NCBI GenBank assembly: GCA_902798615.1 | Contig: CADBXL010000029.1 | Coordinates: 3,722 to 67,721, forward strand | Length of the DNA: 64,000 nucleotides | From: an uncultured Bacteroidales bacterium | Lineage (GTDB): Bacteria; Bacteroidota; Bacteroidia; Bacteroidales; Bacteroidaceae | Reading direction: 5' to 3' | Part shown: positions 18,946-39,400 of the stretch, piece by piece | Numbering within the stretch: position 1 is the stretch's first letter | How the letters are laid out: every line of letters starts with the position of its first letter | The notes under the pieces: model-generated | Database searches by the model: none | What the model was told of the DNA's origin: nothing | What the model saw: the letters and a program-made list of their open reading frames with translations, nothing else | Position numbers and translations under genes: made by a program

Positions 18946-19035
18946 TGTGCAAAGAATCTTCGCATAAAAGCGAAAGTGCGTGTCAGTCTTAATGAAGACT
19001 GGCGCACGGTCTTTGATTCGCTGAGTGCAAAATTA
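18946..19035 (-). promoter_or_regulatory. TAATTTTG promoter plus conserved two-hairpin leader (copy C)
   Basis: GACCGTGCGCCAGTCTTCATTAAGACTGACACGCAC downstream of the -7 box. Homologous copies at 26646-26733 and 39314-39400. Confidence 0.75.
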
Positions 19036-19182
19036 GTAAAAAACTCCCATTTAGCCAAATTTATGAGCAAAAAAGCGGAATTTCCCCCGAAATTAATTTA
19101 TTGCAAGAATGTTCTCAAAAAGCGGATAGATTAGTTTCTCCTTTGCCAAATAGAATCAAAAAACAATCTGTTGTGCTAACAT

Positions 19183-19846
19183 AATCCCAGAAAACGTGTC
19201 GATAACAGGTAACGGGTAACAATAAGAAAAATAGTGTAAACTGCTCCCCATATTTATTATTTCTATATATAATAAGGTATATAAACTCCTTAGAAAGATT
19301 TAGTAAAATTTGGCCATACACTAAAATCCTTATTGTTACCCGTTACCCGTTACTGATCGGGATTTTGCTTGCTTATTGAGCGTGCCATTGATCTTTATAA
19401 AATAAAGATAATTAGGCTGTTATACGAAATTAGAGAGCAAAATATGGGCAGCTGATAGTCTCAATAACATAACAATAAGCATAAATTTCTGGCTGATTCG
19501 CCTTATTCAGTATGCTTGAAAAGCAATGTAAAAATGTGAAAAACATTCCAAAGCCATCCCCAAAACTAAATACAGGCTTCAACGAGATTCTGCGTGAGCT
19601 TTCAACTCCCTCCGATGTAGTTCCGTTGTAAGTCCGTTCCAGGTCCGTTTCAGGTCCGTTTCAAGTCCGTTCATCAATTAACCCTAAAAGCGAAGGCAGA
19701 GCGAAGGCATAGCGAAGGCAGAACGAAAGTACAACGGCATTTCTACCCCTACAGTAACGGGTAACGGGTAACAATAAGGATTTTAGTGTTAGCGTATCTC
19801 ATTTCAGACATAGTACCCCCATCTGGATATGCTCTGTTGGGTGGGA
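19183..19846. mobile_element. Dispersed ~0.7-kb non-coding element, long copy 2
   Basis: Colinear with 3528-4290, with 28-bp sites at 19209 (+), 19319 (-) and 19761 (+). Confidence 0.7.
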
Positions 19847-20272
19847 CTATTAATTATTCTGGTTAGCCTTTGAAAATGGAAGAGAAAAAGTCATGTGAAA
19901 ATTTGGATTTATCAGGAATTATTACTGCCCGTAAATCAATATAACTTACTTTCCATCGAAAATTAGAATATTGGTAAGCTATAAATAAGACAAAAACAAT
20001 AAATCCGCTAGCGTTAAGGTTGTGATTGACTTTTTTCTGTATCTTGAGATTGAGGCTCTTCATTGTGAAGCGAGAGCCTTTTCGGTACAATGGTACAATA
20101 GTACAATAATTTTTACACACACCCTCGTAGGGAGATTAAGATAGTAATTTAATTGCAAGAGGGTTCTTAAATAGCGGATGGATTAGTTTCTCTTTAGCCA
20201 AATGACAAGTTTGGGGTGTTTCTTTTGGTGGAATAGCTTTTTTTGTTTACTTTTGCCGTAAAAAAAAAGAAA

Positions 20273-20782
20273 ATGATAAAACTGTTCCGCTATATAATGG
20301 CTGTCGGATTGCTTGGCGTAATCGCGTCATGCGATCCTGTTAGGTATTTCCCGTTGAATGTGGATAAACTGGATACGAATATTATTGAATTGCCGATAGA
20401 TACAGATAGTGCTCGTATGGAAATCACATATAATAATCTTGGCTGGAGGTGTTGTGTCTATTTGCATTTACCAGATGGTTGTGAGGTTAATGAGGATTCA
20501 TTAGCCGTTTCGTTTAGTGTGCCCAATTTTAGTTGCGGAAGGGTTGAAAAAGATGTGATTGATAAGCGTAACAAACCTATTCCTCTCAGATGTAGCAAGA
20601 TAGATCCATCACATCGTCTCAGTTTTGCACTTTACAAAACTGGAAATGCTGACATTGTCTATAATGTCCCTGCTCAGATGTATTTGAAAATGTCAGGTGT
20701 AATTATTAAGGACGGAAAATCGTTGGTGAATGATACGGTCACGGTTATTCCAATGGGAGTGCCAACATCGAAGCGAGATTAA
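20273..20782 (+). CDS. Hypothetical lipoprotein
   Basis: Lipobox LLGVIASC. The start is reassigned to MIKLFRY, downstream of a TACTTTTG promoter box. Confidence 0.65.
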   Translation: MIKLFRYIMAVGLLGVIASCDPVRYFPLNVDKLDTNIIELPIDTDSARMEITYNNLGWRCCVYLHLPDGCEVNEDSLAVSFSVPNFSCGRVEKDVIDKRNKPIPLRCSKIDPSHRLSFALYKTGNADIVYNVPAQMYLKMSGVIIKDGKSLVNDTVTVIPMGVPTSKRD

Positions 20783-20790
20783 ATCAGTTT

Positions 20791-22458
20791 TTATTCCGCT
20801 TTCTCAAGAATAGCCTTCCACTCCTCAAAGCTATGCACATCGAATTTGCTCCATGTGGCAGCAAACTGATAGGTGTAATGCTGTCCGGGATTAAGGGTGG
20901 CGATAGCAAGGAGATGGTCCTGCTCATGCTTGAACTTTGTTGCCTCAGGACATCTTGCTCCTATGTAGATAACGCCATCTGAACCGTCTTTTTTCACCAT
21001 AGTAGGGTCTTGGTAGTCCTCGTAGGCTATGTAGTGGTATTTCTTGTCGGCATAGACTTTGGGGTTCTCCTTATGAACCACGATGCCCACGGCAATCTGC
21101 ATCTTGCGGTCGAGACCTTCATACCATACCTCGCACGTATTGAATCGCTTGCCTTTTTCCACTGATATTATCCTATGCTCGGTGTAGTGAATGGAATCGC
21201 CATTCTGAAGCCTGTAGTCAACAGGCTTTAGGGTGACGTGCATCTTCAATCGCTCTGGTGTCTGCTCCAAGAACTCGCATTTCTCCCAGCTCCAAGGGAA
21301 GATAATCTTTCCGTCGGTATCAAGCAAGGCAGGTGTGCAACAGCCAAGACTTGCACCTACGGCATAGCAATCCATACCGTTGCCCCAATCCTCGTGGAAA
21401 GACTTCATCTTCACGCCCTTAGGTGGCATGTGAAGACGGTAGCGGAGGTCAACGATAGTATCGTGTGTGTTCTTTACCCAGATATCATATCCGAACAGTT
21501 TCTGTCCTGTCTTCTGAACAGCAGGACCATACATGCGATAGGCGCACCACTCGTTTTCCCATGTGAGGTCATCCATTCGGTTATGGTATATCTTGCCAAA
21601 GACAGAAGCCTTCTTAGGAGCATCGAAAACGGGAAGAGTAAGCAACTGCTGCATCAAGGTCTTTGCCATTCGCTCATGACCGAGGTCGTTAGGGTGAAGA
21701 CGGTCGGTTTCGGCATCCTTGAAGAACTTGGCATATTCGTCAGCCATAGGGTAGAGGCCGCAGAGGGCATTCATATCTATGACAGGCACAGCCCAGATGT
21801 TTGAAGCCTCCTTGACGGCATCAACATATTCCTTGAGATAGATGCCGCATTGGTTGGTATAGTCCTCGGAGCATTGCCAGTTCTTGTCGTTGGCATGGAA
21901 ATTCTGACGGTGGATAGGGGTGAGGAGCACAATCTGCTTGTCGGGGTACATGCGCTTCACCTTGTCGAGAGCGATATTGATACGTCCGCGATACGTGTCC
22001 TTGTCCATGCACATATACTGGCGCTTACGCTTGGTCATCGTCTTTGGCTGTCCATGACCGTACATCACCTCCTCCTCTTTCTCCGTGTACCATTCGCCTA
22101 TCTTCACGCCGTTGTTATAGTCGTTAGTGCCCATGAAGATAAGGATTGCATCCACGGAATCGCCATGCTCTTTCATGCACTCCTCTGCCTGACGCGGAAT
22201 ATCATCCCACATACGTCCGCTCTTGGCATATACATACGGCGTTATGCCGAGCCATTCCTGAAGGAAGGTCCAGTATTTCTTCTTGGCGGCCTTATTGCGT
22301 GGGTCGGTGATTGAGTCGCCGAAATAGGCTACGCGCTTGCCTTGCCAGGGGTGAAGACCCACCCCCTGCCCCTCCCATAAAGGGAGGGGAGTAGAATGTA
22401 TTGCCGATAATGGGCATACTGCCAATATTGTGAGTATTATGAATAGTTTCTTATACAT
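20791..22458 (-). CDS. SGNH/GDSL esterase fused to a DUF4861-like domain
   Basis: GDSIT, FMGTNDY and DRLHP catalytic blocks, then NRMDDLTWENEWCAYRMYGP..GYDIWVK. The start is reassigned to MYKKLF. Confidence 0.8.
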   Translation of the reverse strand: MYKKLFIILTILAVCPLSAIHSTPLPLWEGQGVGLHPWQGKRVAYFGDSITDPRNKAAKKKYWTFLQEWLGITPYVYAKSGRMWDDIPRQAEECMKEHGDSVDAILIFMGTNDYNNGVKIGEWYTEKEEEVMYGHGQPKTMTKRKRQYMCMDKDTYRGRINIALDKVKRMYPDKQIVLLTPIHRQNFHANDKNWQCSEDYTNQCGIYLKEYVDAVKEASNIWAVPVIDMNALCGLYPMADEYAKFFKDAETDRLHPNDLGHERMAKTLMQQLLTLPVFDAPKKASVFGKIYHNRMDDLTWENEWCAYRMYGPAVQKTGQKLFGYDIWVKNTHDTIVDLRYRLHMPPKGVKMKSFHEDWGNGMDCYAVGASLGCCTPALLDTDGKIIFPWSWEKCEFLEQTPERLKMHVTLKPVDYRLQNGDSIHYTEHRIISVEKGKRFNTCEVWYEGLDRKMQIAVGIVVHKENPKVYADKKYHYIAYEDYQDPTMVKKDGSDGVIYIGARCPEATKFKHEQDHLLAIATLNPGQHYTYQFAATWSKFDVHSFEEWKAILEKAE

Positions 22459-22500
22459 AGTCAGTTTTAGTTTAATCAATGTGGTGATAGGTTTCCGAAA

Positions 22501-22708
22501 AAGCCTTGTAAAGGCGAAATAACATAGGCGTGGGTGCAACCCACGTTACATTAACCACCATTTTCCAATAGCGCCGTAGGTGCGATATAATTTCATATTA
22601 TATTGAGAAACATGGAATTATGTCGCCCTTACAGGGCTTTTACTATCAATCCACAACAATAGATAGGGTTACACCCTATCCTATGATATGCCGTCCTTAC
22701 AGGACTTA
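22501..22708. repeat. Long inverted-repeat REP cluster (AGCCCTGTAAGGGCG / GGGTGCAACCC type)
   Basis: The left arm (AGCCTTGTAAAGGCG..CATAGGCGTGGGTGCAACCCACG..AGCGCCGTAGGTGCG) mirrors the right arm, with compensatory changes in the small hairpins. Confidence 0.75.
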
Positions 22709-22891
22709 CAAGATGCTTTTCGGGAATTTCTCGCCACATTGAATTAGTTTATGCTTGCAAAGATACACAATATTCATGAGACCTCCAAGGAAATTCGGGA
22801 AATAGTGAAAAAGTTCTTTCGTCTAATATGTACAGACACAATTCATCCCGAAAGTTTTTGATACTTCCGGGATGAATTGATTATTGACAGA

Positions 22892-25159
22892 TTATTCTTC
22901 CTTGCGCAGGATAGCGGCTGCAGCTACAAGATTCTTGAGGCTATCTACCGTCTCTTGCTCTCCACGAGTCTTCAATCCGCAGTCAGGGTTCACCCATACG
23001 TTAGCTGATGGTATTTTTGCCACAATCTTATGCAAAGTATCAACAATCTCGTTGACTGATGGCACACGTGGCGAGTGGATGTCATACACACCTGGACCTA
23101 CTTGTGTCTCGAAGTTGGCGGCATTGAGTGCGTCAAGCAATTTGAGGTCTGAACGGCTTGCCTCGAATGTGATGACATCAGCATCCATGTTGTCAATGTC
23201 CTTGACTATGTCGCTGAATTCGCTATAACACATGTGGGTGTGTATCTGCGTTTCGGGCTTTACGCCTGAGTGAACAAGCCTGAATGCTGGTATTGCCCAG
23301 TCAAGGTATTCGCTGTGCCATGCACTTTTGCGCAACGGCAGTTTTTCGCGTAATGCGGCCTCGTCAACCTGTATTATCTTTATTCCGCCACGCTCAAGGT
23401 CGAGTACCTCGTCCCTGATGGCGAGGGCAATCTGTAGAGCCTGCTCCTTGAGCGACACGTCCTCGCGTGGGAACGACCAATTGAGTATGGTGACCGGACC
23501 TGTGAGCATTCCTTTCACAGGCTTGTCTGTTAGGCTCTGAGCATATACAGACCACTCTACGGTGATTGGTGACTTGCGGCTCACGTCGCTCCATACTACT
23601 GGTGGCTTTACGCAACGTGTACCGTAGCTCTGAACCCAAGCGTTCTGCGTGAATACATATCCATCCAGTTTTGAGCCGAAATACTCCACCATGTCGTTGC
23701 GCTCAAACTCTCCATGCACCAGCACGTCAAAGCCCAATTGCTCTTGCAACCTTATACATTCAGCAATCTTCTTTTGGTTGTATTCTACATACTCTTCACG
23801 TGTGATTGTACCCTTCTTCAGAGCGGCACGCTTTGCCCTGACTTCTGCGGTCTGTGGGAAAGAGCCGATAGTGGTCGTTGGGAAGGCTGGCAGGTTGAGT
23901 ATTCCCTCCTGTATCTTGCGGCGCTCACTACGGCTTGGTCGGCGCTCGAAGTCTGCGGTCGAAAGTTGGTTGACATTCTGGCGTACCTCGCTATTGCCCT
24001 CGGTACGCGGTTTTGCAAATAGCGCCTTGTTCTCCTGAAGACCATTGCCATTGGCAATATCAGAAAGTTCCGTGAGTTTCTCCTCGGCAAAAGCGAAGTG
24101 GCGTAGTATTTCTTCTGATAGTTTCTCTTCAGAGCCTACTGTATATGGCACATGTAATAGCGAGCATGATGTGCCGATGACGATATTGTCTGCTGGCACG
24201 ACCTTCTCTATCTCCTTAAGCAACTCAAGCTTGTTTGTATAGTTGGCACGCCAGATGTTCTTGCCGTTCACGATGCCAGCAAAGAGCAATACATCCTTTG
24301 GGAAGCCGCTTTGTGTCAGTTCTAGTGTCTTGCGTCCCTCGATGAAATCAAGTCCTATGCCGTCAAAGCCAAGTTCTATAACGTCAGCATAGGCCTCGCG
24401 GATATCGCCAAAGTAGGTCTGTAGCAAAATTCTCAGTCCGCTTTCTTTTCTTATACGGCTAATGAGGTCTGAATAAATTGCCTTGAAGAGGTTGCGCTGC
24501 TCTTTATTTAGTTCGAGTACCAGAGACGGTTCTGCAAAGCTTACCCACTCAGCTCCAGCCTCGGCCAATTTGAGTGCTACTTGTGCGTATGCCTCGGCTG
24601 CCTGAATTGCAAAATCCTTGGCACGCTTACTGCCTGTGTATCTTGCAAGAGATAGGAAAGTAAATGAACCTGTCAGTACGGGGACAGTCTGATAGCCAGC
24701 CGCCTTTGCCTCGTTGTATTCCTCCACAGGCTTTATGTAGTCATTAACCGTGAATACCGTGTTGTCGTCAATCTCTGGCTCAATATAGTGATAGTTGGTA
24801 TTGAACCATTTTTTCATAGGTAGTGCCTTCACGTCGCCTTTCTCCCCCTGATAGCCATGTGAGGCTGCGAAATATGTCTCAATGCGACCAAGTCCCAGAT
24901 TGCGGTAGCGTGCTGGTACCACACCGAAGATAAATGCCGTATCAAGTACGTTGTCGTAGAACGAGAAGTCGTTTGATGGGATGAAGGTAATTCCTGCATC
25001 TTTCTGTTTCTTCCAGCCATAGTAGCGTAAATCCTTTGCGATCTGACGCAATTCCCCCTCGGTAATATCGCCTTTAAAGAATGATTCACTCGCGAACTTA
25101 AGTTCGCGTTTTTTTCCAATACGTGGAAAACCGATTACTGATGTCTTTCTTTTTGTCAT
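22892..25159 (-). CDS. metE: Cobalamin-independent methionine synthase
   Basis: [43 protein letters not shown] and [11 protein letters not shown]. The start is reassigned to MTKRKT. Confidence 0.96.
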
Positions 25160-25342
25160 ACGTTCCTGTTTTTTTATTGTATTCTTGTTATTTTCATGGT
25201 GCAAAGGTATGAAAAGAATTATTTCGTTGCAAAATAATTCTGTAACTTTAGGAAAATATGCTTTGTTTGTACTAGGATCTATAACGAGTGCAGAATATTA
25301 TCCTGCGCAATCGTGAAAGAAACAGGAAAGATAAAAGAAAAA

Positions 25343-25379
25343 TCCCACACTATCAAGGAAAATTCTTGATGGTGTGGGA
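25343..25379 (-). terminator. Intrinsic terminator after fprA
   Basis: TCCCACACTATCAAG / CTTGATGGTGTGGGA stem with a T-run on the minus strand. Confidence 0.75.
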
Positions 25380-25428
25380 ATAGTTATGTTAATAACAGCG
25401 GAGTATGTGTCAGGTTTAATGGATGGCC

Positions 25429-26589
25429 TTATACCATAGCATCCACAAGTGCCTGAAGCTGAGGGATGTCAGACTCCTTCATGCGGCTCCAGATAGTAAC
25501 GGTAGGCTCTACAATCTCGATGTCCTTGCAACCTTCAAGGAGTTTCTTCATAGTCTTGGCTGCCGTTGGAGCCCAAGAGCCGTTCTCGATGATGCCAACC
25601 TTACGCTTCTGGTAAGCCTTCATCTCAAGATGATGGATGAAATCGTACATTGGAGGGAATACGCTTGCATCGTAGCTTGAAGCGGCAAGTACAAGACGGT
25701 TCATTCGGAAAGCATCCTCGATAGCCTCTGCCATATCGTCGCGGCAAAGGTCGGTTATTGCCACCTTACCAATGTTCTTCTCACGGAACATCTCTGCCAC
25801 CTTCTCTGCCACTACCTTTGTACCTCCGTGGATAGAAGCATACGCAATGAGAACGCCCTCTGTCTCAACACCATACTTTGACCATGTGTCGTAGAGACCG
25901 ATGTAATATCCGAGGTTCTCCTTGAGGATAGGACCGTGGAGAGGACAGATAATCTGTATGTCGAGAGCAGATGCAGCCTTCAGGAGTTTCTGTACCTGCA
26001 TGCCATATTTTCCGCAGATATTGAAGTAATAGCGACGAGCCTCACAAGCCCAGTCCTCGTCGGCATTAAGAGCACCGAACTTGCCAAAGCCGTCGGCAGA
26101 GAACAGCACTTTGTCCTTTGAATCATAGCTCACCATTACCTCTGGCCAATGCACCATAGGAGCAGCAACAAAGCTGAGGGTATGCTCGCCAAGCTCAAGT
26201 GTATCGCCGTTCTTTATCTCAAGGCAGTTGGCTTTAAGGTCTTTCGTTGGGAAGAAATTGCCAAGCATGGTGATAGCCTTGCCAGAAGTGACGATTTTCA
26301 CCTCCGGATATTTCTCAACCACCTCTGCAATGAGAGAGGCATGGTCAGGCTCCATGTGGTGAGCCACGAGATATGCAGGCTTACGTCCTGCAAGAGCCTC
26401 TTCAAGGTTAGCCCACCATTCCTTGCCCTTGCGGGCATCGGCAGTATCCATGATTGCTATCTTCTCATCCTCGATGAGGTAGGAGTTATATGCCATTCCG
26501 TTTGGCACTTCGTACTGGCTTTCGAAGAGATCGATGTCAAGGTCATCAACGCCAATATACTTGATTGTAGGGGTGATATTATTTACCAT
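25429..26589 (-). CDS. fprA: Flavodiiron protein (FprA, MBL fold plus flavodoxin)
   Basis: YNSYLI, HHMEPDH, MVHWPE, FSADGFG and PLHG, followed by a flavodoxin domain. Confidence 0.92.
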   Translation of the reverse strand: MVNNITPTIKYIGVDDLDIDLFESQYEVPNGMAYNSYLIEDEKIAIMDTADARKGKEWWANLEEALAGRKPAYLVAHHMEPDHASLIAEVVEKYPEVKIVTSGKAITMLGNFFPTKDLKANCLEIKNGDTLELGEHTLSFVAAPMVHWPEVMVSYDSKDKVLFSADGFGKFGALNADEDWACEARRYYFNICGKYGMQVQKLLKAASALDIQIICPLHGPILKENLGYYIGLYDTWSKYGVETEGVLIAYASIHGGTKVVAEKVAEMFREKNIGKVAITDLCRDDMAEAIEDAFRMNRLVLAASSYDASVFPPMYDFIHHLEMKAYQKRKVGIIENGSWAPTAAKTMKKLLEGCKDIEIVEPTVTIWSRMKESDIPQLQALVDAMV

Positions 26590-26645
26590 TTACCATTTAC
26601 CATTTACTATTTAACTATTTACTAATTACTATTTACAAAAATCAC

Positions 26646-26733
26646 GTGCAAAGTCTATCTTCGCACGAAGAAGAAAGTGCGTGTCAGCCCTAAAGGCTGG
26701 CGCACGGTCTTTGATTCTGCGAGTGCAAAGATA
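26646..26733 (-). promoter_or_regulatory. TATCTTTG promoter plus conserved two-hairpin leader (copy B)
   Basis: GACCGTGCGCCAGCCTTTAGGGCTGACACGCAC, then GTGCGAAG/CTTTGCAC. Confidence 0.75.
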
Positions 26734-26835
26734 CAAATAAGTTTTCAATTCTCAAAAAAACAAAGAATAAAGTTTTTATCGAAATTGAAATTATTACAAA
26801 TTGGTGTTCTTTTAAAAAACAAAAAACATAAAAAA

Positions 26836-27380
26836 GCTAATCAATTAATAATTAACAATTAACAATTAACACTTGCGAAGCTTGATGAGCTTGCGAAGAA
26901 CTGCGAAGCTAGTGAACTTGCGAACAATTAACATGCGGTTCTTATTGTTTTTGTCTTATTATAACGTCAGTTCGACCAAATTGCTGAAACAGCCTGCAAG
27001 GCTAACAAGCTAATAGCCTAGGGCATCGCCCTAGATACATTGAAGTTTGTCAATTTCGCCCTGTAGGGGCAAAAGCATCTTTATGTTAGGGCTTTTGCCC
27101 TTTCAGGGCGTAGTCTATCTATTGAACCAATACCGGCGCAAGCCGACAAAACAATTTTTCGCTAGACTCAACAAGCTAAAGCAAGTGTTAATTGATTAGC
27201 TTTTTCCTGTTTTTTACCTTAATGTCTTGCCGTAGGCCTGATATGTGGATTTGTTTTTATCGGGAAGCCCTAAGGCTTACCAGGAAAAATAAATACGCAT
27301 AGCAGCAAGAGGCGAGGAACGAGACTCTAAGACATTAAGGGGTTCTTATTGTTTTTGTTTTATTTATAACTCAAATTCCT
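26836..27380. repeat. Stack of several small non-autonomous repeat elements
   Basis: Inverted ends near 26836-26900 and 27155-27200, REP hairpins at 26995-27115, 12-bp inverted repeats at 27217 and 27329, and a direct repeat GTTCTTATTGTTTTTGT near 26938 and 27342. Confidence 0.65.
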
Positions 27381-31076: not shown

Positions 31077-31163
31077 TTTTTTAGTAAGGAAATGAAAAGT
31101 GAAAATGGGGAAAAAGAATTTCTCATTGTTCACTTTTCATTTTTCATTTATTGTCTTGGAAGA

Positions 31164-31916
31164 TTAGTTCCAAGCGTCGATGATACCCTTGAAGTCAGCA
31201 GCCTTCAGAGAAGCGCCACCGATAAGGCCACCGTCGATGTCAGGCTTAGCGAAGAGCTCAGGAGCGTTAGAAGCCTTGCAAGAACCACCGTAGAGGATAG
31301 TTGTGTTGTCAGCAGCCTCTGCACCGTAAACCTCAGCTACGCAAGAACGGATGAAAGCGTGGATTTCCTCTGCCTGCTCAGCAGTAGCGGTCTTACCTGT
31401 ACCGATAGCCCAGATTGGCTCGTAAGCGATAACGATGTTCTTCCACTCCTCAGCAGAAAGGTGGAATACAGAACCAGCGAGCTCAGCCTTACATACAGCC
31501 TCCTGCTTGTTAGCCTCACGCTCAGCGAGAGACTCACCGATACAGAAGATAACCTTCAAACCGTTAGCGAGAGCGAGGTTAACCTTCTCCTTGAGAATCT
31601 CTGGAGTCTCGTGATAGTACTCACGACGCTCAGAGTGACCGAGGATAACGTACTCAGCACCTGTTGACTTAACCATCTCAGCAGAAACCTCACCTGTATA
31701 AGCACCAGAAGCCTTGTCTGCGCAGTTCTCAGCAGAGAGCTTGATGCAGCTGCCCTTGATAACGTCAGCAACGCTTGCGAGGTGGATGAATGGAGTACCG
31801 ATGATAACATCACAGTTAGGGTTCTTTACTACCTCTGTAAGTTCCTTTGCGAGAGCAACGCCCTCCTGCAGGTTCTTGTTCATTTTCCAGTTACCTGCTA
31901 CGATTTTCTTTCTCAT
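31164..31916 (-). CDS. tpiA: Triosephosphate isomerase domain (possible independent internal start)
   Basis: [30 protein letters not shown] and LIGGASL. The ATG at 31916 is preceded by an A-rich tract. Confidence 0.95.
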
Positions 31917-33227
31917 TTTTTGTTTTGTTTTTAATAATTTATATATCCTGTCGGATTTTTCTAATTCTTTTTTCGATAGCCATCTTGACCACATCCAAAG
32001 TCTGTCGGCAATGGTGAGCAAGGCAAGAGGCAATACAAACCCGAGCAGTATCAGGGCTATTCTTCTGGCTAAGCCATCCTCAGGCAAATGCCCGAACTCA
32101 GACTTGCTCAACGGCTGCTTTATCATCTCGTCGGCTGGCAGGAGGTTATGGCTCCACTTGCCGATTACAGTACCGTCTTTCAACAGAAGGAGTCCCGGAT
32201 TGCTTCTGACGATTGTCTTCAGCGTTATCTCGTCCGTGTTATAGAACGGATATTCTGCTCCTGTCATATCCTTCCAGCGTGCAATGGCTGAATCGCCACT
32301 CGCCGTAAGGCAATAGAACTTATAGTGGTTCTCTGCGGCATATTCATAGATCATGTCTATGTTACCGAAGTTCGTGTCGTCGGCCTGTTCCAGATGCGGA
32401 GAGACAAGAAGGAAAACATATCCCTTGTTGATAGTCTCGGTCAGGTCATCGCCTGTCTGCATATCCGTGATGGAGAAATCATGGATAGGTGGAACATAGC
32501 CCTCGCTTATCTGTTTTGACTTGGAGTCTATGAAAGTCCAGGTAGAGTCAGGGTATTCCTCCAACGTGAATTCCTTTTGAACCCCGTCCTTCTCCAATAT
32601 GAAGGTGGTCTCAAACTCAGGTGCCTTTGCTCCTTCGGGTATTTCCATTCCCTCAGGAATATTAGCACCTATGTGGTATGGTCGGAAGTCGAAGACAGGC
32701 AGGTCGTACAAACTCCATACTGATGTGCCGAGGATGAAGAGAATGGTATAGTGGAATACAATCCATTGGTTACTGAGATTCACGAACCTTGGCATCTTCA
32801 ATGGCCATCTCGCTATCACAAATGCAAGTGCAAGGAGGATGATGTTCTTCAGAAGCGTTTCGCCATTGCTCAGACGTATCGCGTCGCCGAAGCATCCGCA
32901 GTCGCTTACCGGGTCTGACGCCCACACCCATACAGTTACCAGAGTCATCACGACCATGAAGACGAGCATCACGTTGGCTACTATTTTCCTCAGTATGGCG
33001 AAGAGAAGGAAAACACCAAGCGAGAACTCCAAAGCCGACAACGCCACAGATGTGGAGAGAGTCAGCCAGTCAGGCACATACTGCAACAGCCCCAGCGCCT
33101 CCGCATAGTCCTGCAGCTTATACTGCGTTCCTATTGGGTCAACCGCCTTAACATATCCTGAGAAGATGAATGTTATGGAGAGTATGACTCGGGCAATGTT
33201 AATCAGTATTGTTTGAAGCCTCTTCAC
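31164..33227 (-). CDS. DoxX/MauE-like membrane protein (BT_3928 family) in-frame with triosephosphate isomerase
   Basis: One stop-free ORF: [10 protein letters not shown] and DCGCFGDA N-terminal part, thioredoxin-like middle (RSNPG) and a full TIM domain. Confidence 0.8.
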
Positions 33228-33763
33228 TTTTCTTCCTTGGTCTTAATGAGTCCGAATACAGCGTAGTTTATGATGTCCATATAGTTTGAATCAATACCTT
33301 CTGACACGCTAACCTTACCCTGATGATCCTCAATCTCCTTTATCCTGTTTATCTTTGTGAGGATGAAATCAGTATAGCTTGTAACCCGCATTCCGCGCCA
33401 AGCCTCGGCATAGTCATGGTTCTTGCGAATCATTAACTGCAAGGTCTCTTCCGCAAAGTGGTCGTAAAGTTCAATGGCACGCTTCTTGTCAATGTCGGGC
33501 TCGTCAACGTAGCCTTCCTGCAACTGTATCAGCCCTATGATGCCATAGTTGACCAACGCCATTATCTCGGGACGGATCCCCTCTTCAACCATAGCCACCT
33601 CGCCAGTCTCAAGCTGACGAATGCGCTTTGCCTTTATGAAGAGCTGGTCGGTAAGAGAAGATGGACGGAGAATACGCCAGGAGGCACTATAGTCTCCCAG
33701 CTTTGCGGTAAAGATATCTCGGCACTCTTTTAGTGCGCTTCTGAATTCTTCCTCAGTTGTCAT
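33224..33763 (-). CDS. DUF1599 domain protein
   Basis: Two internal repeats: K..DY..SWR/AWR..R..S.TD, and D..NYA.FGLI. Confidence 0.8.
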
Positions 33764-33781
33764 AGTCTTAATCTTTTATGA

Positions 33782-33897
33782 GTCAAAGGTCGAAGGTCAA
33801 AGGTTGAAGGTCGAAGGTCAAAGGTCGAAAGCCTTAGTCCTTAGTCTTTAGACCTTAGACATTAGTCTTTAGTCTTTCGACTTTAGTCCTTAGACTA
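33782..33897. repeat. Heptamer tandem repeats (AGGTCRA, then TTAGTCY)
   Basis: 7-bp period. A shorter inverted counterpart lies at about 49104-49152. Confidence 0.8.
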
Positions 33898-33972
33898 CAT
33901 TATGAGTGCAAAGTTACTCATTTTTAGCGATATTTCAAAGAAAAAGCCTCTGAAAATGCCAATTCATATAGG

Positions 33973-34449
33973 TCATTTATCTTTTGTCAACTCTTTTTGA
34001 CGTTTGTGAATGTATTTTATCTTTGCACATTCCAGATTGAAAACGCCCTGAAGGGAGTCACGATATGCTCTCAATTCGTTGAACTTCTGGAGTTCTTCCT
34101 GGGTAGCCGTACATGCTTTGCGATGTGCCTCTACCTGTGGTTTCATCTCGTCAAACTGCCTTATTGCTGACTGAAGGGCGGAATCCACCTCAGCAAGATT
34201 TGCCTGTGCCATTTTCAGAGATGCCTCCTGATGGAACTTCAAGGCTTCCCTGCGCTCTTCTACAGCCTCGGGATAATAATGACGCATAGAGTCTATGGAA
34301 TAAATCACACGCTGATAGTTGCCGGCCTCATAGTCAGCCTGTATTTCCTTGAGCAACTGCTTGGCTTCAGGGTTTTTCTCGCAACCTGTGAGGAGAACCG
34401 TACTGAAAGTTACACAAATAGCCAATCTGAGTACTTGTAACGATGTCAT
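33973..34449 (-). CDS. Hypothetical coiled-coil lipoprotein
   Basis: Lipobox LLTGC. The start is uncertain (34473 or 34449). Confidence 0.65.
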   Translation of the reverse strand: MTSLQVLRLAICVTFSTVLLTGCEKNPEAKQLLKEIQADYEAGNYQRVIYSIDSMRHYYPEAVEERREALKFHQEASLKMAQANLAEVDSALQSAIRQFDEMKPQVEAHRKACTATQEELQKFNELRAYRDSLQGVFNLECAKIKYIHKRQKELTKDK

Positions 34450-34543
34450 TGCTATGTTTTTACGTAAATTCATGGTGCAAAAGTACTAAAAAAATCAGAA
34501 ACACCCGAATATGTCATTCTTTTTTTGTAATTTTGCAGGCGAA

Positions 34544-36145
34544 ATGAAGGATTATACTGACGCCGAACTGGCGGAATTACTTGATAAAGATATTTTTCAC
34601 ATGATTTCAGAGGCTGCCGACAGCCTCGGTCTTGAATGTTATGTGGTAGGGGGATATGTCCGTGATATATTCCTCGAAAAACCATCTGATGATATTGACT
34701 GCGTGGTGGTGGCTCCTAACGGAATGCCATCCCCTGGAATTGCTGTTGCCAAGAGTCTGAAGAAGAGACTTGGCAAGAAAGCCTCTCTTTCTGTATTCAA
34801 GAACTTTGGAACAGCACAAGTGAAGGTATATGGAAGGGATATAAACGAATCGGCTTCCTCTCTACGGGAGAGGGCGGGGGAAGAGGCTGTTGAGGAGTCT
34901 TCTATAGAAATAGAATTCGTCGGCGCTCGCAAGGAAAGCTACCAGCGTGATTCCCGCAAGCCTATCGTTGAAGACGGCACTCTTGAGGATGACCAGAACC
35001 GTCGTGATTTTACCATCAACGCTATGGCTATCTGTTTGAACAAGAGTCGCTTTGGTGAACTCGTTGACCCGTTTGGAGGTGTTGATGACCTGTATGATGG
35101 AATAATCCGCACACCTCTTGATCCAGACATCACTTTCTCCGATGACCCTTTGCGAATGCTCCGTTGCATCCGCTTTGCTACACGCTTCAACTTCCTTATC
35201 GAAGACGAGACTTTCGAGGCTCTTGAACGTAATGCCGAGCGTATCAAAATCATTAGTGGAGAGCGCATAGCAGAAGAGTTGAACAAGATTCTTATGACCA
35301 AGCATCCAAGTCGTGGCTTCGTGGATTTGCAACGCTCTGGTCTCCTTGCAATTATCTTCCCTGAACTCTCGCAGATGGATATGGTCGAGACTAAGAATGG
35401 TCGTGCCCATAAGAATAATTTCTACCATACTTTGGAGGTGTTGGAAAATCTTATTTCGCAAACCACCAACACCCAACCTGCTCCGACAGGCACAAATGAA
35501 ACCTCCGTCGGTTCTCCGGCTCCCTCTCTACGGGAGAGGGCGGGGGGAGAGGCTCCTCTCTGGCTCCGTTGGGCAGCAGTTCTCCACGACATCGGCAAAC
35601 CGAAGAGCAAGCGCTGGGATCCTGTTCAGGGTTGGACATTCCATGCCCACAACATTATAGGCGCAAAGATGATTCCCGGTATCTTCCGCAGAATGAAACT
35701 ACCTATGGATGCCAAGATGAAATTCGTACAGAAGATGGTGGAACTTCACATGCGTCCTATCGCTATTGCCGATGATATTGTTACCGATTCTGCCGTTCGT
35801 CGTATGGTGAATGATGCTGGTGATGATATTGATGCTCTCATGGCTCTCTGCGAGGCTGATATAACGAGCAAGAACCAACAACGAAAGCAAAAGTTCCTTG
35901 ACAACTATCAGCTTGTGCGCCAGAAGATTGAAGACTTAAAGGAAAAGGATTTCAAGCGACTTCTCCAACCTGTTATTGACGGTAACGAGATTATGGAGAT
36001 GTATAATCTCAAACCATCACGAGAAGTCGGAATCCTAAAGCAATATCTCAAGGATGCTGTTCTCGATAATAAGGTTGAGAACGAGCGCGAACCTCTCCTT
36101 GCCTTGCTCAACGAGAAAGCAAAGGAATTAGGTTTAGTGAAGTGA
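34544..36145 (+). CDS. cca: CCA tRNA nucleotidyltransferase with HD domain, carrying two in-frame REP insertions
   Basis: VGGYVRD, DIDC, RRDFTINA, DDPLRMLR and LHDIGK. The start is reassigned to MKDYT (34544). Confidence 0.92.
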   Translation: MKDYTDAELAELLDKDIFHMISEAADSLGLECYVVGGYVRDIFLEKPSDDIDCVVVAPNGMPSPGIAVAKSLKKRLGKKASLSVFKNFGTAQVKVYGRDINESASSLRERAGEEAVEESSIEIEFVGARKESYQRDSRKPIVEDGTLEDDQNRRDFTINAMAICLNKSRFGELVDPFGGVDDLYDGIIRTPLDPDITFSDDPLRMLRCIRFATRFNFLIEDETFEALERNAERIKIISGERIAEELNKILMTKHPSRGFVDLQRSGLLAIIFPELSQMDMVETKNGRAHKNNFYHTLEVLENLISQTTNTQPAPTGTNETSVGSPAPSLRERAGGEAPLWLRWAAVLHDIGKPKSKRWDPVQGWTFHAHNIIGAKMIPGIFRRMKLPMDAKMKFVQKMVELHMRPIAIADDIVTDSAVRRMVNDAGDDIDALMALCEADITSKNQQRKQKFLDNYQLVRQKIEDLKEKDFKRLLQPVIDGNEIMEMYNLKPSREVGILKQYLKDAVLDNKVENEREPLLALLNEKAKELGLVK

Positions 36146-36266
36146 AGAGTGAAAAGTGAAGAGTGAAAAGTGAAGAGTGAAGAATTTAAGTTACCATTTA
36201 TTGCGAAAGGTTGATAGACTGCCTTAAACTGCAATACAAACTTAAATTCTTCACTCTTCACTTTTC
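36137..36266. repeat. Heptamer-armed inverted-repeat element (AGTGAAG arrays, GAATTTAAGTT..AACTTAAATTC)
   Basis: A related copy in the opposite orientation lies at 56304-56428. Confidence 0.8.
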
Positions 36267-36303
36267 GTTTTTTACTCCTCCTTACAACCACCTTTCCTTT
36301 TAT

Positions 36304-36400
36304 GATCCTCCATCGATAGTCCATCAGTCCTCCATCGATCCTCCATCGAAACGATGGACTTGCGATGGAGTAACGATGGAGTAACGATGGAGTATCTACG
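36304..36400. repeat. Inverted arrays of 11-bp units (CTCCATCG x4, CGATGGAG x4)
   Basis: Units start at 36308, 36319, 36330, 36341 and 36352, 36363, 36374, 36385. Confidence 0.85.
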
Positions 36401-36522
36401 GTATTTCTGCGGCAAATCAAGGGAAAATCTACGAAATAAAAAAGCTTATGCCCGAAATGGACATAAGCTTTCCGTTACCATACAACCTGTAATTTCACCA
36501 AAACCAAATTTCTCTAAATCCT

Positions 36523-37626
36523 CTATTTTTTTTCTTCCTTTACATCTTTTCTCTTGCCTTTTATAAAGCTACTGAGAATCGAATTTTCCATAGGAGCGAT
36601 TCGAATACTATTATACTCTGTTGGTGGTATTGTGAAGAAATATCCATCTTCCGTTATGCTAAAGTCCAAACCCCTTTTCCATCCATTTTGAGATAATCCC
36701 TTCAGAATTGGCCTAAACAATGCAGATTCAGGACGTTTTGTTCTCAGCTTCTTCTTAGCTTCTTCATATGCTTTGTAGTTATAATCGTAGATTTGATTTC
36801 CGTTATGGGCAAGGTAGTCCTTTGTGACTTTATTGACCTCATCCATTATCTTCTTAGCCAACACTTCATCCTTTTGCGGAATGAAGAATGTTTTGCCGTT
36901 ACGAACTTGGGATGATTTCTTCCCTCCAGTTCCTTTTCCCGTAAGGATGTGTTCCTTATCGTAATTTTGCGAATTGTAATCCCATGATTTCACGCCTTCC
37001 CGATTAAAAACAGGAAGTATGACATTCCTATATGCTTCGAAATCAAAGTATTCCTCTTTAGCATAATCCGCATATTCTATTCTTTTGTGTAAAATATGGA
37101 AATAAATAAGTTTTCCAATCTCGGTTTCTTTTGAACGCATACTAAATGTGAGAGTTTCCGTTGTATCTGGAAATTCCCAATCGTCCTTGCTTTTTTTTCT
37201 GCTTTTGTTTGATTCAAGGCATATAGAATAATTTACTGTGTCGATATCTCGATTGTGATTTTCAAAATGATATGATTCTTCAGATGTTTCCATTAGCGAA
37301 TCTAACATTTGACGGACACGGGCACAAGTTTCCTTATAGATTTTTTCTTCATTATCTATCCTGGACTTCAAAGAGTCTGCATCTGGGGCTTCCTCGCCCC
37401 TGGCTAATTTGGAATTAATAAAATCAGTTATTCCCTTCATGTTGCGGAATGAACGCTTTAAATTAAGGGTATGTTGAAATATAACGTATGTTCCCTTATC
37501 GTGGACTTTGCGTTTCCAGTCATACCCGCCAATAGACCTGGTAATTTCGTCAAGTCCTAACTCCCTCTGTGCCAACGTATTCATAGCCAGCACCAAGGAA
37601 AATATTATCGTGATAATTCTTTTCAT
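36523..37626 (-). CDS. Secreted hypothetical protein (DUF5024-like), third gene of ECF module 1
   Basis: Signal peptide. Shares ESY...D, F...AY and IP motifs with 45986-47068. The family name is from recollection. Confidence 0.6.
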   Translation of the reverse strand: MKRIITIIFSLVLAMNTLAQRELGLDEITRSIGGYDWKRKVHDKGTYVIFQHTLNLKRSFRNMKGITDFINSKLARGEEAPDADSLKSRIDNEEKIYKETCARVRQMLDSLMETSEESYHFENHNRDIDTVNYSICLESNKSRKKSKDDWEFPDTTETLTFSMRSKETEIGKLIYFHILHKRIEYADYAKEEYFDFEAYRNVILPVFNREGVKSWDYNSQNYDKEHILTGKGTGGKKSSQVRNGKTFFIPQKDEVLAKKIMDEVNKVTKDYLAHNGNQIYDYNYKAYEEAKKKLRTKRPESALFRPILKGLSQNGWKRGLDFSITEDGYFFTIPPTEYNSIRIAPMENSILSSFIKGKRKDVKEEKK

Positions 37627-37641
37627 AAATTCTTTGCTTTA

Positions 37642-38304
37642 TTAATTAATCGCACTTCTTGCGTTGAGGGCTGCCACTCTTCGTACTACCAACTCGCCTC
37701 TTTCACGAATGTTTCTTGTAAACTCTATGAAAAGTTTCTTGGATTCTCGTATATCAGGCTCTTCGACTTGTGCTATATCATTTATATCATCCATACCACC
37801 CATAGGCTCAGCAATAGGTTCTGCCTCTTGTCTTGTGATGCTCTCCTGTTGCTCTTCTTCAGCTCTTCTTGATACGCGAGACTTGTGCTTTGTCTTGTGC
37901 GTGGGCAGAGGCTTTGTGGAGATTTCACTTTTGACTAATTCTTTTGTCTCAACAGTCTTTGGTTCTGTTTCGACATCTTTCTTAGGCTCAACCTTTGCTA
38001 TTTGAGGCTTGCTGACGGTCTCTTCTCTTGGAGGACCGAGGAAGACGATGAGCAAGGCGGCAACACAGGCAGCTGCAACCCAAGCCCATAGCCTGATGAA
38101 GCGAGGCTTCTGCTTGCGCTCAGCCATTATTTGGTCGAATAGTGCCTCGTCGATGGTCAGTTCGCCAAGCATCTCGGCTATGACCTTCCAGTCATCGGGT
38201 GCATCCTTTCGGGAAACTTCAAGAGCAAGAAGTCTCTCCTCCTCGGCAGTTGTCTCGCCGTTGAGATATTTCTGGATTAATATTTCAATCTCGTTATATG
38301 TCAT
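37642..38304 (-). CDS. Anti-sigma-like single-TM protein
   Basis: LIQKYLNGETTAEEE N-terminus and one TM helix, downstream of an ECF sigma. Confidence 0.75.
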   Translation of the reverse strand: MTYNEIEILIQKYLNGETTAEEERLLALEVSRKDAPDDWKVIAEMLGELTIDEALFDQIMAERKQKPRFIRLWAWVAAACVAALLIVFLGPPREETVSKPQIAKVEPKKDVETEPKTVETKELVKSEISTKPLPTHKTKHKSRVSRRAEEEQQESITRQEAEPIAEPMGGMDDINDIAQVEEPDIRESKKLFIEFTRNIRERGELVVRRVAALNARSAIN

Positions 38305-38511
38305 GTTGTTAATACTTTTACTGTTAAATCAAATCGGGCTTGCGCCCTGTGGCGGAAAGTAAATTAGAAGTAAATTAATTCAGTAAAATATATTCAGTAA
38401 ATTATTATTTTTCAGCATTTCCAAGCGACGGATGTCGCTCCTGTAATTTACTGATTTAATTTTCTCCTAATTTACTTTCTAAAAGGAGCATTTACTTCCC
38501 GAAAGAAGAAT

Positions 38512-39030
38512 TTACTTTCTAAGTCTTTCTTTAATTTCCTCGAAGACTTTCTTTCTTGCTGCCGAGACAATACTCTTTATCGAAGGTTTCGCGATGTTTG
38601 TCCGTTTTGCTATGTCGTCAAGCTCAAGACCTTCTATCTGCCTCATTTCAAACAGGCGTCGCTCACTCGGTTTAAGATGCTGAACGGCTTTGTCAACAGC
38701 CTCATGAAGTTCCTTTGCCTCCAGAGTCTCGTGAGGCGACGCCCCCACATCCTTTCCTGGTGGTGCTATCTCCTCATTCGATCTGCATAACACAAAAGGG
38801 CTGGATTTCCTTTTCCTCGCTATATCCAGACAACAATGTTTTGCCACCCTGATGGCAAGGGCATCATGCCGGGCACCAGACTCCATTCTGTCGATGAACT
38901 TTAGAAGAGCTACCAATCCCTCCTGTGCAACGTCCTCGGCATCATCATCATTGCCGAAGAAACTGCGGCCTACCGAGAGCATCAACTCTCGGAGCGCTGG
39001 GGCTATATGTTCAAACTCTTCTTGGGTCAT
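38512..39030 (-). CDS. ECF-type RNA polymerase sigma factor
   Basis: Region 2 (DAEDVAQE) and region 4 (LFEMRQIEGLELDDIA) only. Confidence 0.85.
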   Translation of the reverse strand: MTQEEFEHIAPALRELMLSVGRSFFGNDDDAEDVAQEGLVALLKFIDRMESGARHDALAIRVAKHCCLDIARKRKSSPFVLCRSNEEIAPPGKDVGASPHETLEAKELHEAVDKAVQHLKPSERRLFEMRQIEGLELDDIAKRTNIAKPSIKSIVSAARKKVFEEIKERLRK

Positions 39031-39313
39031 TCTACAATATAAGCGTATGTCAATGTGAAAAGTTAAGTTGGAAAATCATTTTTTTTTTACTATAATATTT
39101 TAAACGCAAAGACGATGCGTTTATTTTTGAACATGGAACTAACGAAAACTCCGTTTCTTTAGTGTTTTTTGTTTAGGAATAAAACTTTGCGTCTCTGCGT
39201 CTTTGCGTTTAATATACCATTGCAAAGATATGCATTTGTTTTTTATCATGCAATAGTTTCTGCATGGAAAAACATTTTTGATGGATTTATTTGGTAGATC
39301 GTTTGATATTTAT

Positions 39314-39400
39314 TAACTTTGCACTCACAAAATCGAAGACCGTGCGCCAGCCTTTGGGTTGACACGCACTTTTTGCATCATGCGAAGAAGCACTCGCAAA
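39314..39400 (+). promoter_or_regulatory. TAACTTTG promoter plus conserved two-hairpin leader (copy A)
   Basis: GACCGTGCGCCAGCCTTTGGGTTGACACGCACTTTTT, then TGCGA/TCGCA. Confidence 0.75.

What the first reader, a model, noticed from the sequence alone, without database searches (positions are those of the whole stretch)
18946..39400. Covarying two-hairpin leader directly after three unrelated promoters
Seen: three copies (18946-19035 minus, 26646-26733 minus, 39314-39400 plus). Each starts at a TAnnTTTG box, followed by CACTC...AATC.AAGACCGTGCGCCAG-var-YTGACACGCAC-TTT and a second hairpin beginning TGCGA. In P1 the outer GTGCG/CGCAC stem and C/ACA internal loop are invariant. The inner stem varies compensatorily (CAGCC/GGCTG, CAGTCTT/AAGACTG, CAGCC/GGTTG). 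P2 also covaries (TGCGAAG/CTTTGCA versus TGCGA/TCGCA). Downstream genes are a YghO-like GNAT protein, flavodiiron FprA and a lipocalin-like lipoprotein. Inference: a cis-regulatory RNA (attenuator, riboswitch or protein-binding leader; P1 is followed by 3-5 U), a short sRNA, or a portable promoter-leader unit. I do not recognise it as a known family.
Basis: partly seen in the sequence, partly recalled or inferred. Interest (0 to 1): 0.75.

Follow-up and report, generated by a model that had tools for sequence, protein, structure and literature searches.

The report
Promoter-abutting structured leader repeat family
The three look-alike leaders are copies of an apparently undescribed ~80-base folded repeat that a small group of cattle-rumen Prevotella carries about 80 times per genome, always directly behind a gene's core promoter box and often in tandem, so it is a portable leader cassette and not a switch dedicated to particular genes.

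Summary
The three window copies belong to a family of 79 units in 61 arrays in this 3.46-Mb rumen Prevotella genome: 46 single, 12 double and 3 triple. Sixty of the 61 arrays begin exactly at a TAnnTTTG -7 box. Each unit folds as P0 (variable outer helix), P1 (two stems around an almost invariant C/ACA internal loop) and P2. Covariation is strong in this genome and in 134 units from other genomes. No Rfam family matches. Downstream genes are functionally unrelated: enolase, LuxS, PadR, CysD, rubredoxin, FprA, GNAT and others. The family occurs in a narrow clade of rumen Prevotellaceae. Close species differ in unit number or presence at orthologous promoters, with clean filled and empty sites next to the -7 box. 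A more distant carrier has the units at mostly different genes and has a second stem type that keeps the C/ACA loop. Best reading: a clade-specific repeat cassette that sits next to promoters and is transcribed as a leader. It is not a gene-specific riboswitch or attenuator. How it spreads and what the RNA does are inferred only. The likely options are a 5'-end hairpin, partial termination or a protein-binding site.

The parts
19028..19035 (-). -7 promoter box TAATTTTG of copy 1. A TTTG (-33 type) lies upstream at the usual spacing.
   Evidence: 60 of 61 arrays start at TAnnTTTG, and the spacing to an upstream TTTG peaks at 20 nt.
18946..19027 (-). Unit copy 1 (leader of the GNAT gene 17762-18907). 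P0 19022-19017 with 18974-18969. P1 19007-18976 (GTGCG-C-CAGTCTT / AAGACTG-ACA-CGCAC). P2 18964-18948.
   Evidence: P1 is in the minimum-free-energy fold, z = -4.4; 83.8 bits.
26726..26733 (-). -7 promoter box TATCTTTG of copy 2.
26646..26725 (-). Unit copy 2 (leader of the FprA-type gene 25429-26589). P1 26705-26677. P2 26666-26646.
   Evidence: z = -4.1; 89.1 bits; a 1326-nt contig from an RNA run covers the CDS and runs into the unit as far as 26703.
39314..39321 (+). -7 promoter box TAACTTTG of copy 3.
39322..39400 (+). Unit copy 3 (leader of the 134-aa secreted or lipoprotein-like gene 39460-39864). P1 39342-39369. P2 39381-39398.
   Evidence: 71.3 bits; present in all 10 strain contigs that encode the identical protein.
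13739..13767 (-). Remnant. The promoter-proximal GCACTC and both P0 arms (GCAAAT / ATTTTTGC) are present, but P1 and P2 are missing. The orthologous promoter of a close species carries three full units.
   Evidence: (L046 versus G000 C29:17399).

Best explanation
The three leaders are members of a clade-specific, multi-copy repeat cassette of about 75-85 nt. It lies immediately downstream of the sigma-A -7 box (TAnnTTTG) of many unrelated genes, between the box and the gene's native leader, singly or in tandem arrays of 2-3 units in this genome (up to 5 in G003).

Shown: the copy number and placement, the fold, the turnover between species, and the absence from Rfam. The fold is P0, then P1 with an invariant C/ACA internal loop, then P2.

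Inferred, step 1: each unit ends in (T/G)TTGCAC, the same word that ends the -7 box region of ordinary promoters in this genome. Units are therefore probably gained, lost and multiplied by recombination, template switching or slippage at this short repeat. No transposase appears to be dedicated to them.

Inferred, step 2: the array is transcribed as the 5' end of the mRNA, with P0 starting about 1-2 nt after the expected start site. Its RNA hairpins would then act generically on expression. The most likely effects are a 5'-terminal stem-loop that changes mRNA stability, and/or a leaky terminator formed by P1 plus the U-run.

Inferred, step 3: the invariant CC/GACA loop suggests that some factor recognises it. 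The element is not a sensor dedicated to the functions of the downstream genes.
For: Copy number and placement. nhmmer finds 79 units in 61 arrays and the covariance model finds 76. Sixty of 61 arrays start at TAnnTTTG, with a -33 TTTG peak at 20-nt spacing. Arrays are 46 single, 12 double and 3 triple, with a median of 58 nt to the ATG.

Fold. In 45 units of this genome, 85% of cells are paired against 77% in shuffles, with 95 double-change cells against 30, and all 6 P0 pairs covary. In 134 units from other genomes, 90.9% are paired against 77.4%, 24 of 25 pairs show double changes, and the covariation score is 0.377 against 0.149 in shuffles and at most 0.088 when the partners are slid. The nucleotides of the C/ACA loop, its closing C-G pair and the bases flanking P1 are 96-100% invariant, while the stems vary. 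G003 has a unit type with different stem sequences (ACGAG-C-CTGC/GCAG-ACA-CTCGT) and the same loop. P2 holds many G.U pairs, which fits folding of the sense strand.

Not gene-specific. Downstream genes include enolase, LuxS, PadR, CysD, rhodanese, a RelA/SpoT-domain protein, rubredoxin, GNAT and FprA.

Turnover. Seven of 13 orthologous arrays in close species differ in unit number. Clean filled and empty sites lie next to the -7 box, and cores are replaced within a conserved scaffold. G003 lacks the unit at FprA, and only about 1 of 10 of its element-bearing genes shares it with G000.

Distribution. Hits occur in G000, G003 and one hit in G016 among 31 relatives. Several rumen Prevotellaceae MAGs carry multiple copies. 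In an even sample of the family, 1 of 300 other genomes matched.

No known family or vehicle. There is no Rfam match. Y1 transposase genes are flanked by a different repeat and do not track the element. There are no phage copies.

Transcription. A contig from an RNA run joins the FprA CDS to the unit, and summed RNA contig depth falls more than 10-fold in three of four runs (about 3-fold in X25) just upstream of 26725.
Against: No transcription start or 3' end was mapped. At the third copy, a contig from an RNA run also covers DNA upstream of the promoter, so DNA carry-over or read-through cannot be excluded.

No mobilising enzyme or mechanism was identified. The short-repeat model rests on two clean indels plus the array variation. 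There is no consistent target-site duplication.

In P0 and outer P1, G.U pairs are no more common than A.C mismatches, so folding of DNA instead of RNA is not excluded for those helices.

The near-invariance of the internal loop argues for a specific partner, and none was found. The effect on expression is wholly inferred.

The alignment was fitted to the model, which favours the structure.
Confidence: 0.62

Rival explanations
1. The units form a global cis-regulatory regulon. A clade-specific RNA-binding protein or sRNA recognises the invariant CC/GACA internal loop of P1 and switches P1 plus the U-run between termination and read-through (or controls decay). About 60 operons would then be co-regulated, and tandem units would sharpen the response.
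For: The loop, its closing pair and the flanking bases are 96-100% invariant while the stems covary. The loop also survives complete replacement of the stem sequence in type B units. P1 is followed by UUU(U) or UAUUU in nearly all units. Some strong arrays precede redox or sulfur genes: rubredoxin, FprA, rhodanese, CysD and LuxS. Between orthologous sites the unit is about as conserved as the promoter and more conserved than the downstream leader (84% against 74%).
Against: The gene set has no functional coherence. Close species gain, lose or change the number of units at the same promoter. The distant carrier G003 has the units at mostly different genes. No partner was identified. P1 with its internal loop fails a simple terminator scan. 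The possible alternative P1/P2 pairing is absent in type B units.
Confidence: 0.2
2. The unit is purely selfish or neutral DNA. It would be a hairpin-forming mini-element that an unidentified enzyme inserts at the exposed -7 box/TTTGCAC site. The hairpins would matter only as folded DNA during movement, and transcription into mRNA leaders would be incidental.
For: High copy number in a narrow, patchy set of genomes. Filled and empty sites exist, one flanked by a 7-bp direct repeat AACTTTG. Copy number is labile. There is no G.U excess over A.C in P0 and outer P1. A second micro-element nests inside some units.
Against: There are no terminal inverted repeats and no consistent target duplication. 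The Y1 transposase genes are linked to another repeat and do not co-occur with the element. Every copy is in sense orientation behind a promoter, none lies in a 3' region or between convergent genes, and P2 is rich in G.U pairs that would be mismatches on the other strand.
Confidence: 0.13
3. The units are independent small-RNA genes. They would be short transcripts ending after P1 or P2 that act in trans, and they merely happen to lie upstream of genes.
For: P1 plus a U-run could end a transcript of about 55 nt. Three of the 61 arrays have no evident ORF nearby; two others are followed only by short ORFs.
Against: 56 of 61 arrays are followed by a co-directional ORF of 60 aa or more, at a median of 58 nt and with no second promoter. 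Only 4 arrays have any extra TAnnTTTG. A contig from an RNA run joins a unit to its CDS. No conserved seed region exists outside the structural core.
Confidence: 0.03
4. The unit is a double-stranded DNA operator. The imperfect palindrome CGTGCG...CGCACG would bind a global repressor downstream of the start site.
For: Palindromic CGTGCG/CGCACG words occur twice per unit at a fixed distance from the promoter.
Against: The P0 and P1 stems change sequence while keeping complementarity. This is expected for a folded strand, not for a protein-DNA site. The asymmetric C/ACA loop breaks the palindrome. Tandem 75-85-bp arrays are not operator-like.
Confidence: 0.02

Closest known systems
BOX elements of Streptococcus pneumoniae (boxA-boxB(n)-boxC)
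   Same: Short, modular, non-coding repeats with many copies per genome. They lie in intergenic DNA close to gene starts, carry a variable number of tandem internal modules, are predicted to fold into stable RNA hairpins, and are reported to alter expression of neighbouring genes. This comparison is from my own knowledge, not tested here.
   Different: BOX elements are not tied to one exact position relative to the promoter and occur in either orientation. Here 60 of 61 arrays start at the -7 box, in sense orientation. No sequence relationship was tested.
Correia (CREE) elements of Neisseria and ERIC/IRU elements of enterobacteria
   Same: Small dispersed repeats that are co-transcribed with neighbouring genes, fold as RNA hairpins and can change mRNA processing or stability. 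Correia ends can also supply promoter boxes. This comparison is from my own knowledge.
   Different: Those elements have terminal inverted repeats, and Correia elements have a TA target duplication. The present unit has neither. Its ends are a direct repeat of TTGCAC, shared with the promoter.
REP/BIME elements mobilised by RAYT (Y1) transposases
   Same: Hairpin repeats in high copy number and clustered arrays. This genome does encode two Y1 transposase homologues.
   Different: The Y1 genes are flanked by a different palindrome (GGGCAGTCCGATAGGGCTG), not by this unit. G003 has 34 units and no Y1 gene, while many genomes without the unit have one. REPs lie mostly at 3' ends, not at promoters.
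5'-terminal stabiliser stem-loops (for example the E. coli ompA 5' UTR)
   Same: A stable hairpin starts within a few nucleotides of the mRNA 5' end. P0 begins 6 nt after the TTTG of the -7 box, about +1 or +2 of the expected transcript.
   Different: Those are single-gene features, not a dispersed repeat family. No stability effect has been measured here.
Earlier scan note e1-5202177 (66-bp palindromic mini-element beside Prevotella promoters, another genome)
   Same: A repeat lying just after the -7 box, in tandem arrays with variable copy number, seen in Prevotella-group bacteria and not described in the literature.
   Different: The unit length differs (66 bp against 75-85 bp). No shared sequence words were found. 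That note is itself an unchecked AI reading.

Membership tests
Any Rfam 15 family | Covariance-model score at or above the family's gathering threshold | tested here: not met
   There were 0 hits at gathering level in the 64-kb window. In E-value mode on copy 1 and on five array loci, including type B arrays, only weak unrelated hits far below threshold appeared.
Riboswitch or gene-specific attenuator | Association with a functionally coherent set of downstream genes | tested here: not met
   Downstream genes span glycolysis, sulfur assimilation, quorum sensing, transcription factors, redox proteins, transporters and kinases.
Riboswitch or gene-specific attenuator | Conservation at orthologous genes across species | tested here: not met
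   G003 lacks the unit at FprA. About 1 of 10 element-bearing genes of G003 share it with G000. Close species show presence/absence and copy-number differences.
Riboswitch or gene-specific attenuator | Mutually exclusive terminator and antiterminator pairings | tested here: inconclusive
   In type A units the 3' arm of P1 (CGCAC) could pair with the 5' arm of P2 (GTGCG). Type B units lose this possibility. P1 is followed by a U-run but fails a simple terminator scan.
MITE (miniature inverted-repeat transposable element) | Terminal inverted repeats | tested here: not met
   The unit ends are GCACTC... and ...TTGCAC, a direct repeat and not an inverted one.
MITE (miniature inverted-repeat transposable element) | Target-site duplication of fixed length that matches the local target | tested here: inconclusive
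   One filled site is flanked by AACTTTG on both sides. Another shares only TTG. The window copies do not repeat the local 'nn' of TAnnTTTG at their 3' end.
REP/BIME with RAYT | A cognate Y1 transposase gene flanked by the repeat and co-occurring with it | tested here: not met
Intrinsic terminator | An uninterrupted G+C-rich stem directly followed by a run of 5 or more U | tested here: not met
   P1 is interrupted by a 1x3 internal loop and is followed by 3-5 T. The scan did not call it.
Structured RNA (general) | Compensatory base changes that keep the helices, above shuffle and slide controls | tested here: met
   R-scape itself was not available.
Bacteroidota sigma-A promoter (-33 TTTG / -7 TAnnTTTG) | A TAnnTTTG box with an upstream TTTG at about 19-21 nt spacing | tested here: met
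   60 of 61 arrays have the box. 24 of those 60 have a TTTG 15-23 nt upstream, with a sharp peak (16 cases) at 20 nt. Promoter activity itself was not tested.

The most novel reading that the evidence does not exclude
The unit is a new kind of promoter-directed 'leader cassette'. An unknown machinery would place it precisely between the -7 box and the transcription start, perhaps using the melted promoter DNA or the TTTGCAC word as its target. Its RNA would carry an invariant CC/GACA internal-loop motif read by a clade-specific protein. A self-spreading element would thereby have wired about 60 unrelated operons into one post-transcriptional circuit.
Probability: 0.15. Interest if true: 0.85.

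Novelty: new variant of a known kind. Interest (0 to 1): 0.6.

Why it matters
Dispersed hairpin repeats such as BOX, Correia, ERIC and REP are known. I know of none that is locked to one exact position at the core promoter and in sense orientation, and I found none in Rfam or in two literature searches.

If the cassette alters mRNA fate, it is a natural, transferable 5'-UTR part for Prevotella, a dominant rumen and gut genus with few genetic tools. It would also be an example of a repeat reshaping the leaders of dozens of genes within the time of species divergence.

There is also a practical consequence. Comparative searches for riboswitches in Bacteroidota will keep recovering this family as a false 'regulon' unless it is catalogued.

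Tried and rejected
- **Rfam**, in gathering and E-value modes: nothing relevant.
- **Link to a Y1/RAYT transposase**: the genes exist, but they flank another repeat and do not co-occur with the element.
- **Phage origin**: the only viral hit is a chance match in G+C-rich coding DNA.
- **Empty-site alleles within the species**: metagenome contigs gave only short, low-confidence joints across the TTTGCAC repeat at copy 1. All strain contigs encoding identical GNAT, FprA or 134-aa proteins carry the unit.
- **Start-site mapping from metatranscriptome contigs**: suggestive at FprA but contradicted at copy 3, where a contig runs through the promoter. These runs are held only as assembled contigs, and the assemblies break at the repeat.
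- **Spare-promoter idea**: only 4 of 61 arrays contain a second TAnnTTTG.
- **Leader peptide**: the ATG in 'TTCATGCGA' is present in only a minority of units.
- **Pseudoknot between the AAAG bulge and the YUUUR loop**: one array (both C1:143559 units) has a CAAAGA loop with no compensating change, so I did not pursue it.
- **G.U against A.C strand bias**: uninformative for P0 and outer P1.
- **Literature**: two full-text searches found no description.
Full report
**1. The observation**

Their alignment shows a conserved block that begins at the TTTG of a TAnnTTTG box and runs for about 85 nt. The core pattern occurs three times in the window and never in shuffles. No Rfam family matches. There were 0 hits at gathering level in the window. 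Only weak unrelated hits appeared in permissive scans of copy 1 and of five array loci.

**2. Scale**

The window lies in a 3.46-Mb, 43% G+C assembly from cattle rumen. A profile built from strict matches finds 79 units in 61 arrays, and the covariance model finds 76.

- Forty-six arrays are single, 12 double and 3 triple, with a period of about 70-85 nt.
- The median distance from the array to the first ATG-started ORF is 58 nt.
- Sixty of 61 arrays begin at TAnnTTTG.
- The distance to an upstream TTTG peaks sharply at 20 nt, which is the Bacteroidota -33/-7 layout.

Ordinary promoters of this genome also read TAnnTTTGCAC(C/T)C. The unit's first bases therefore resemble the generic start region. 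Every unit also ends in (T/G)TTGCAC, so units are bracketed by a direct repeat shared with the promoter.

**3. Anatomy**

A unit reads: GCACTC, then P0 5' arm (RNNAAA), then an A-rich bulge (UCAAAGAC or CAGAGAC), then C, then P1 outer stem (GUGCG), then unpaired C, then P1 inner stem (CAGCC), then a variable loop, then GGCUG, then ACA, then CGCAC, then U, then P0 3' arm (UUUNNY), then UUC, then P2 (GUGCGAGG...CUUCGCAC or GUGCGA...UUGCAC).

- RNAalifold recovers P0 and P1 by itself.
- On 45 units of this genome, 85% of cells pair against 77% in shuffles, with 95 double-change cells against 30. All six P0 pairs covary.
- On 134 units from other genomes, 90.9% pair against 77.4% and 24 of 25 pairs show double changes. 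The covariation score is 0.377, against 0.149 in shuffles and at most 0.088 with slid partners. That alignment was fitted to the model.
- The most invariant bases are not in the stems. They are the C before P1, the unpaired C, the closing C-G pair, the A-C-A bulge and the U after P1, all at 96-100%.
- G003 carries a second unit type with an extra small hairpin and entirely different P1 stems (ACGAG-C-CTGC / GCAG-ACA-CTCGT). It keeps the C/ACA loop, P0 and P2, and it alternates with type A units in arrays. A third stem variant (GGGC.../...GCCC) occurs in this genome.
- P2 contains many G.U pairs that would be C.A on the other strand. P0 and outer P1 show no such bias.
- Single-sequence folds keep P1 in all three window copies, with z-scores of -4.4, -4.1 and -1.5.

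**4. What it is not**

The downstream genes share no function. They include amidophosphoribosyltransferase, an ion antiporter, an aldo-keto reductase, enolase, ATP synthase beta, pyruvate kinase, LuxS, CysD, XerD and PadR, MerR and TetR regulators. Also present are a TonB-dependent receptor, rhodanese, a RelA/SpoT-domain protein, rubredoxin, FprA and GNAT (Pfam on ten of them). A riboswitch or a dedicated attenuator is therefore not supported.

An operator for a DNA-binding protein does not fit helices that change sequence while keeping complementarity.

A stand-alone sRNA does not fit at least 58 of 61 arrays, which are followed closely by a co-directional ORF without a second promoter. Fifty-six have an ORF of 60 aa or more, and two have shorter ORFs (rubredoxin and a small membrane peptide).

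**5. Distribution and turnover**

Among 31 relatives, only G000 (76 hits), G003 (34) and G016 (1) have the unit. An exact-pattern scan of one genome per species finds multi-copy carriers among rumen and other animal-gut Prevotellaceae MAGs, including RUG12487, RUG12352, RUG14682, RUG14644, UBA1710 and Ca. Prevotella equi. The hits outside Bacteroidota are scattered single matches that I take to be chance (only the viral hit was inspected). A scaffold pattern matched in 1 of 300 other genomes drawn evenly from the family.

- In strains encoding the identical 134-aa protein, the unit is always present. It differs between strains more than its flanks do.
- In close species (95-99% protein identity), many positions are shared, but 7 of 13 orthologous arrays differ in unit number.
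- Where the number is the same, the unit is 84% identical. That is like the promoter region (85%), above the downstream leader (74%) and below the coding sequence (95%).
- Many orthologous promoters carry a unit in the relative but not in G000. Alignments give two clean indels directly behind the -7 box. One is a 76-nt unit between two copies of AACTTTG.
- In several loci the 5' GCACTC and the 3' P2 are kept while the core is different.
- One locus, in the window at 13739-13767, keeps only the two P0 arms where the relative has three units.
- G003 lacks the unit at FprA and shares about 1 of 10 positions with G000.
- At enolase, a species with 98% protein identity has a wholly different upstream region without the unit.

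**6. How it may move**

There are no terminal inverted repeats and no consistent target duplication. The two Y1 transposase homologues of this genome are flanked by a different palindrome. Y1 genes do not co-occur with the unit among relatives. No phage carries the unit.

The only constant junction feature is the TTTGCAC or TTGCAC direct repeat. I therefore infer gain, loss and amplification by recombination, template switching or slippage at this word. This is an inference, not a demonstration.

**7. Transcription**

In rumen metatranscriptome assemblies, a 1326-nt contig covers the FprA coding sequence and enters the unit as far as 26703. Summed RNA contig depth drops more than 10-fold in three of four runs (about 3-fold in X25) just upstream of 26725, the expected start. 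At copy 3, however, a contig from an RNA run also covers the promoter and upstream DNA. DNA carry-over or read-through therefore cannot be excluded, and assemblies break at the repeat. Co-transcription is likely but not proven.

**8. Likely action**

P0 starts 6 nt after the TTTG, so the P0-P1 hairpin would sit at the extreme 5' end of the mRNA. That is the position at which stem-loops are known to protect bacterial mRNAs (established knowledge, for example the ompA leader).

P1 is followed by UUU(U) or UAUUU and could act as a leaky terminator. Simple scans do not call it a terminator because of the internal loop.

The invariant CC/GACA loop suggests recognition by a factor, and none was identified. 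I rank the readings as follows:
- a generic leader cassette with a modest structural effect: 0.62
- a true regulon with a trans-acting factor: 0.20
- purely DNA-level selfish repeat: 0.13
- sRNA: 0.03
- operator: 0.02

**9. Comparison and novelty**

The element works most like the pneumococcal BOX elements and like Correia and ERIC elements: dispersed, modular, co-transcribed hairpin repeats. It fails the defining tests for MITEs and for RAYT-linked REPs, and it matches no Rfam family.

Its strict placement at the -7 box, in sense orientation, sets it apart. An earlier AI note from this scan (e1-5202177) describes a similar promoter-adjacent element in another Prevotella genome. It shares no sequence words with this one. 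I treat it as a lead that my independent results agree with.

Verdict: a real, apparently undescribed repeat family, best classed as a new variant of a known kind and of moderate to high interest. The function of its RNA is open.

Noticed in passing
window 26870-26900 (-) and 63150-63210 (+); genome C33:10697-10786, C2:120430-120486: There is a second micro-element, ATTCGC-N3-5-GCTCATCAAGC-N3-5-GCAAGT. Its core word GCTCATCAAGC occurs 84 times in the genome, often after (T)ATTCG. It is nested inside some leader units, between UUC and the P2 arm.
   Followed up: partly
window 26590-26645 (-): A run of 7-nt units (TAAATAG/TAAATGG) fills the space between unit copy 2 and the FprA start codon, and the ATG lies inside the repeat. 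Other units, especially the GTCAAA subfamily, are followed by (GGTGAT/GGTGTT)n and their complements.
   Followed up: no
genome C47:8150-8960 and C17:43250-43830: Two Y1 (RAYT-like) transposase homologues are present. One has an in-frame TGA. Both are preceded by the same roughly 250-nt region holding the palindromes GGGCAGTCCGATAGGGCTG and AGCGCTGAAAAGCGCG, which looks like a separate REP system.
   Followed up: partly
whole genome: The ordinary promoter consensus extends beyond the box to TAnnTTTGCAC(C/T)C(G)NAAA, including at tRNA promoters. All twelve commonest 4-mers after TAnnTTTG start with CA.
   Followed up: partly
G219:C27:2561-2629: A single good copy of the unit occurs in a genome of a different GTDB genus of the same family. 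It could be a transfer, a relic or a binning error.
   Followed up: no
genome C12:39520-40065 (-): Two separate unit-bearing promoters lie 400 nt apart upstream of cysD. The first is followed by a 300-nt non-coding stretch that ends in a terminator-like hairpin. This could be an sRNA or an unrecognised riboswitch.
   Followed up: no
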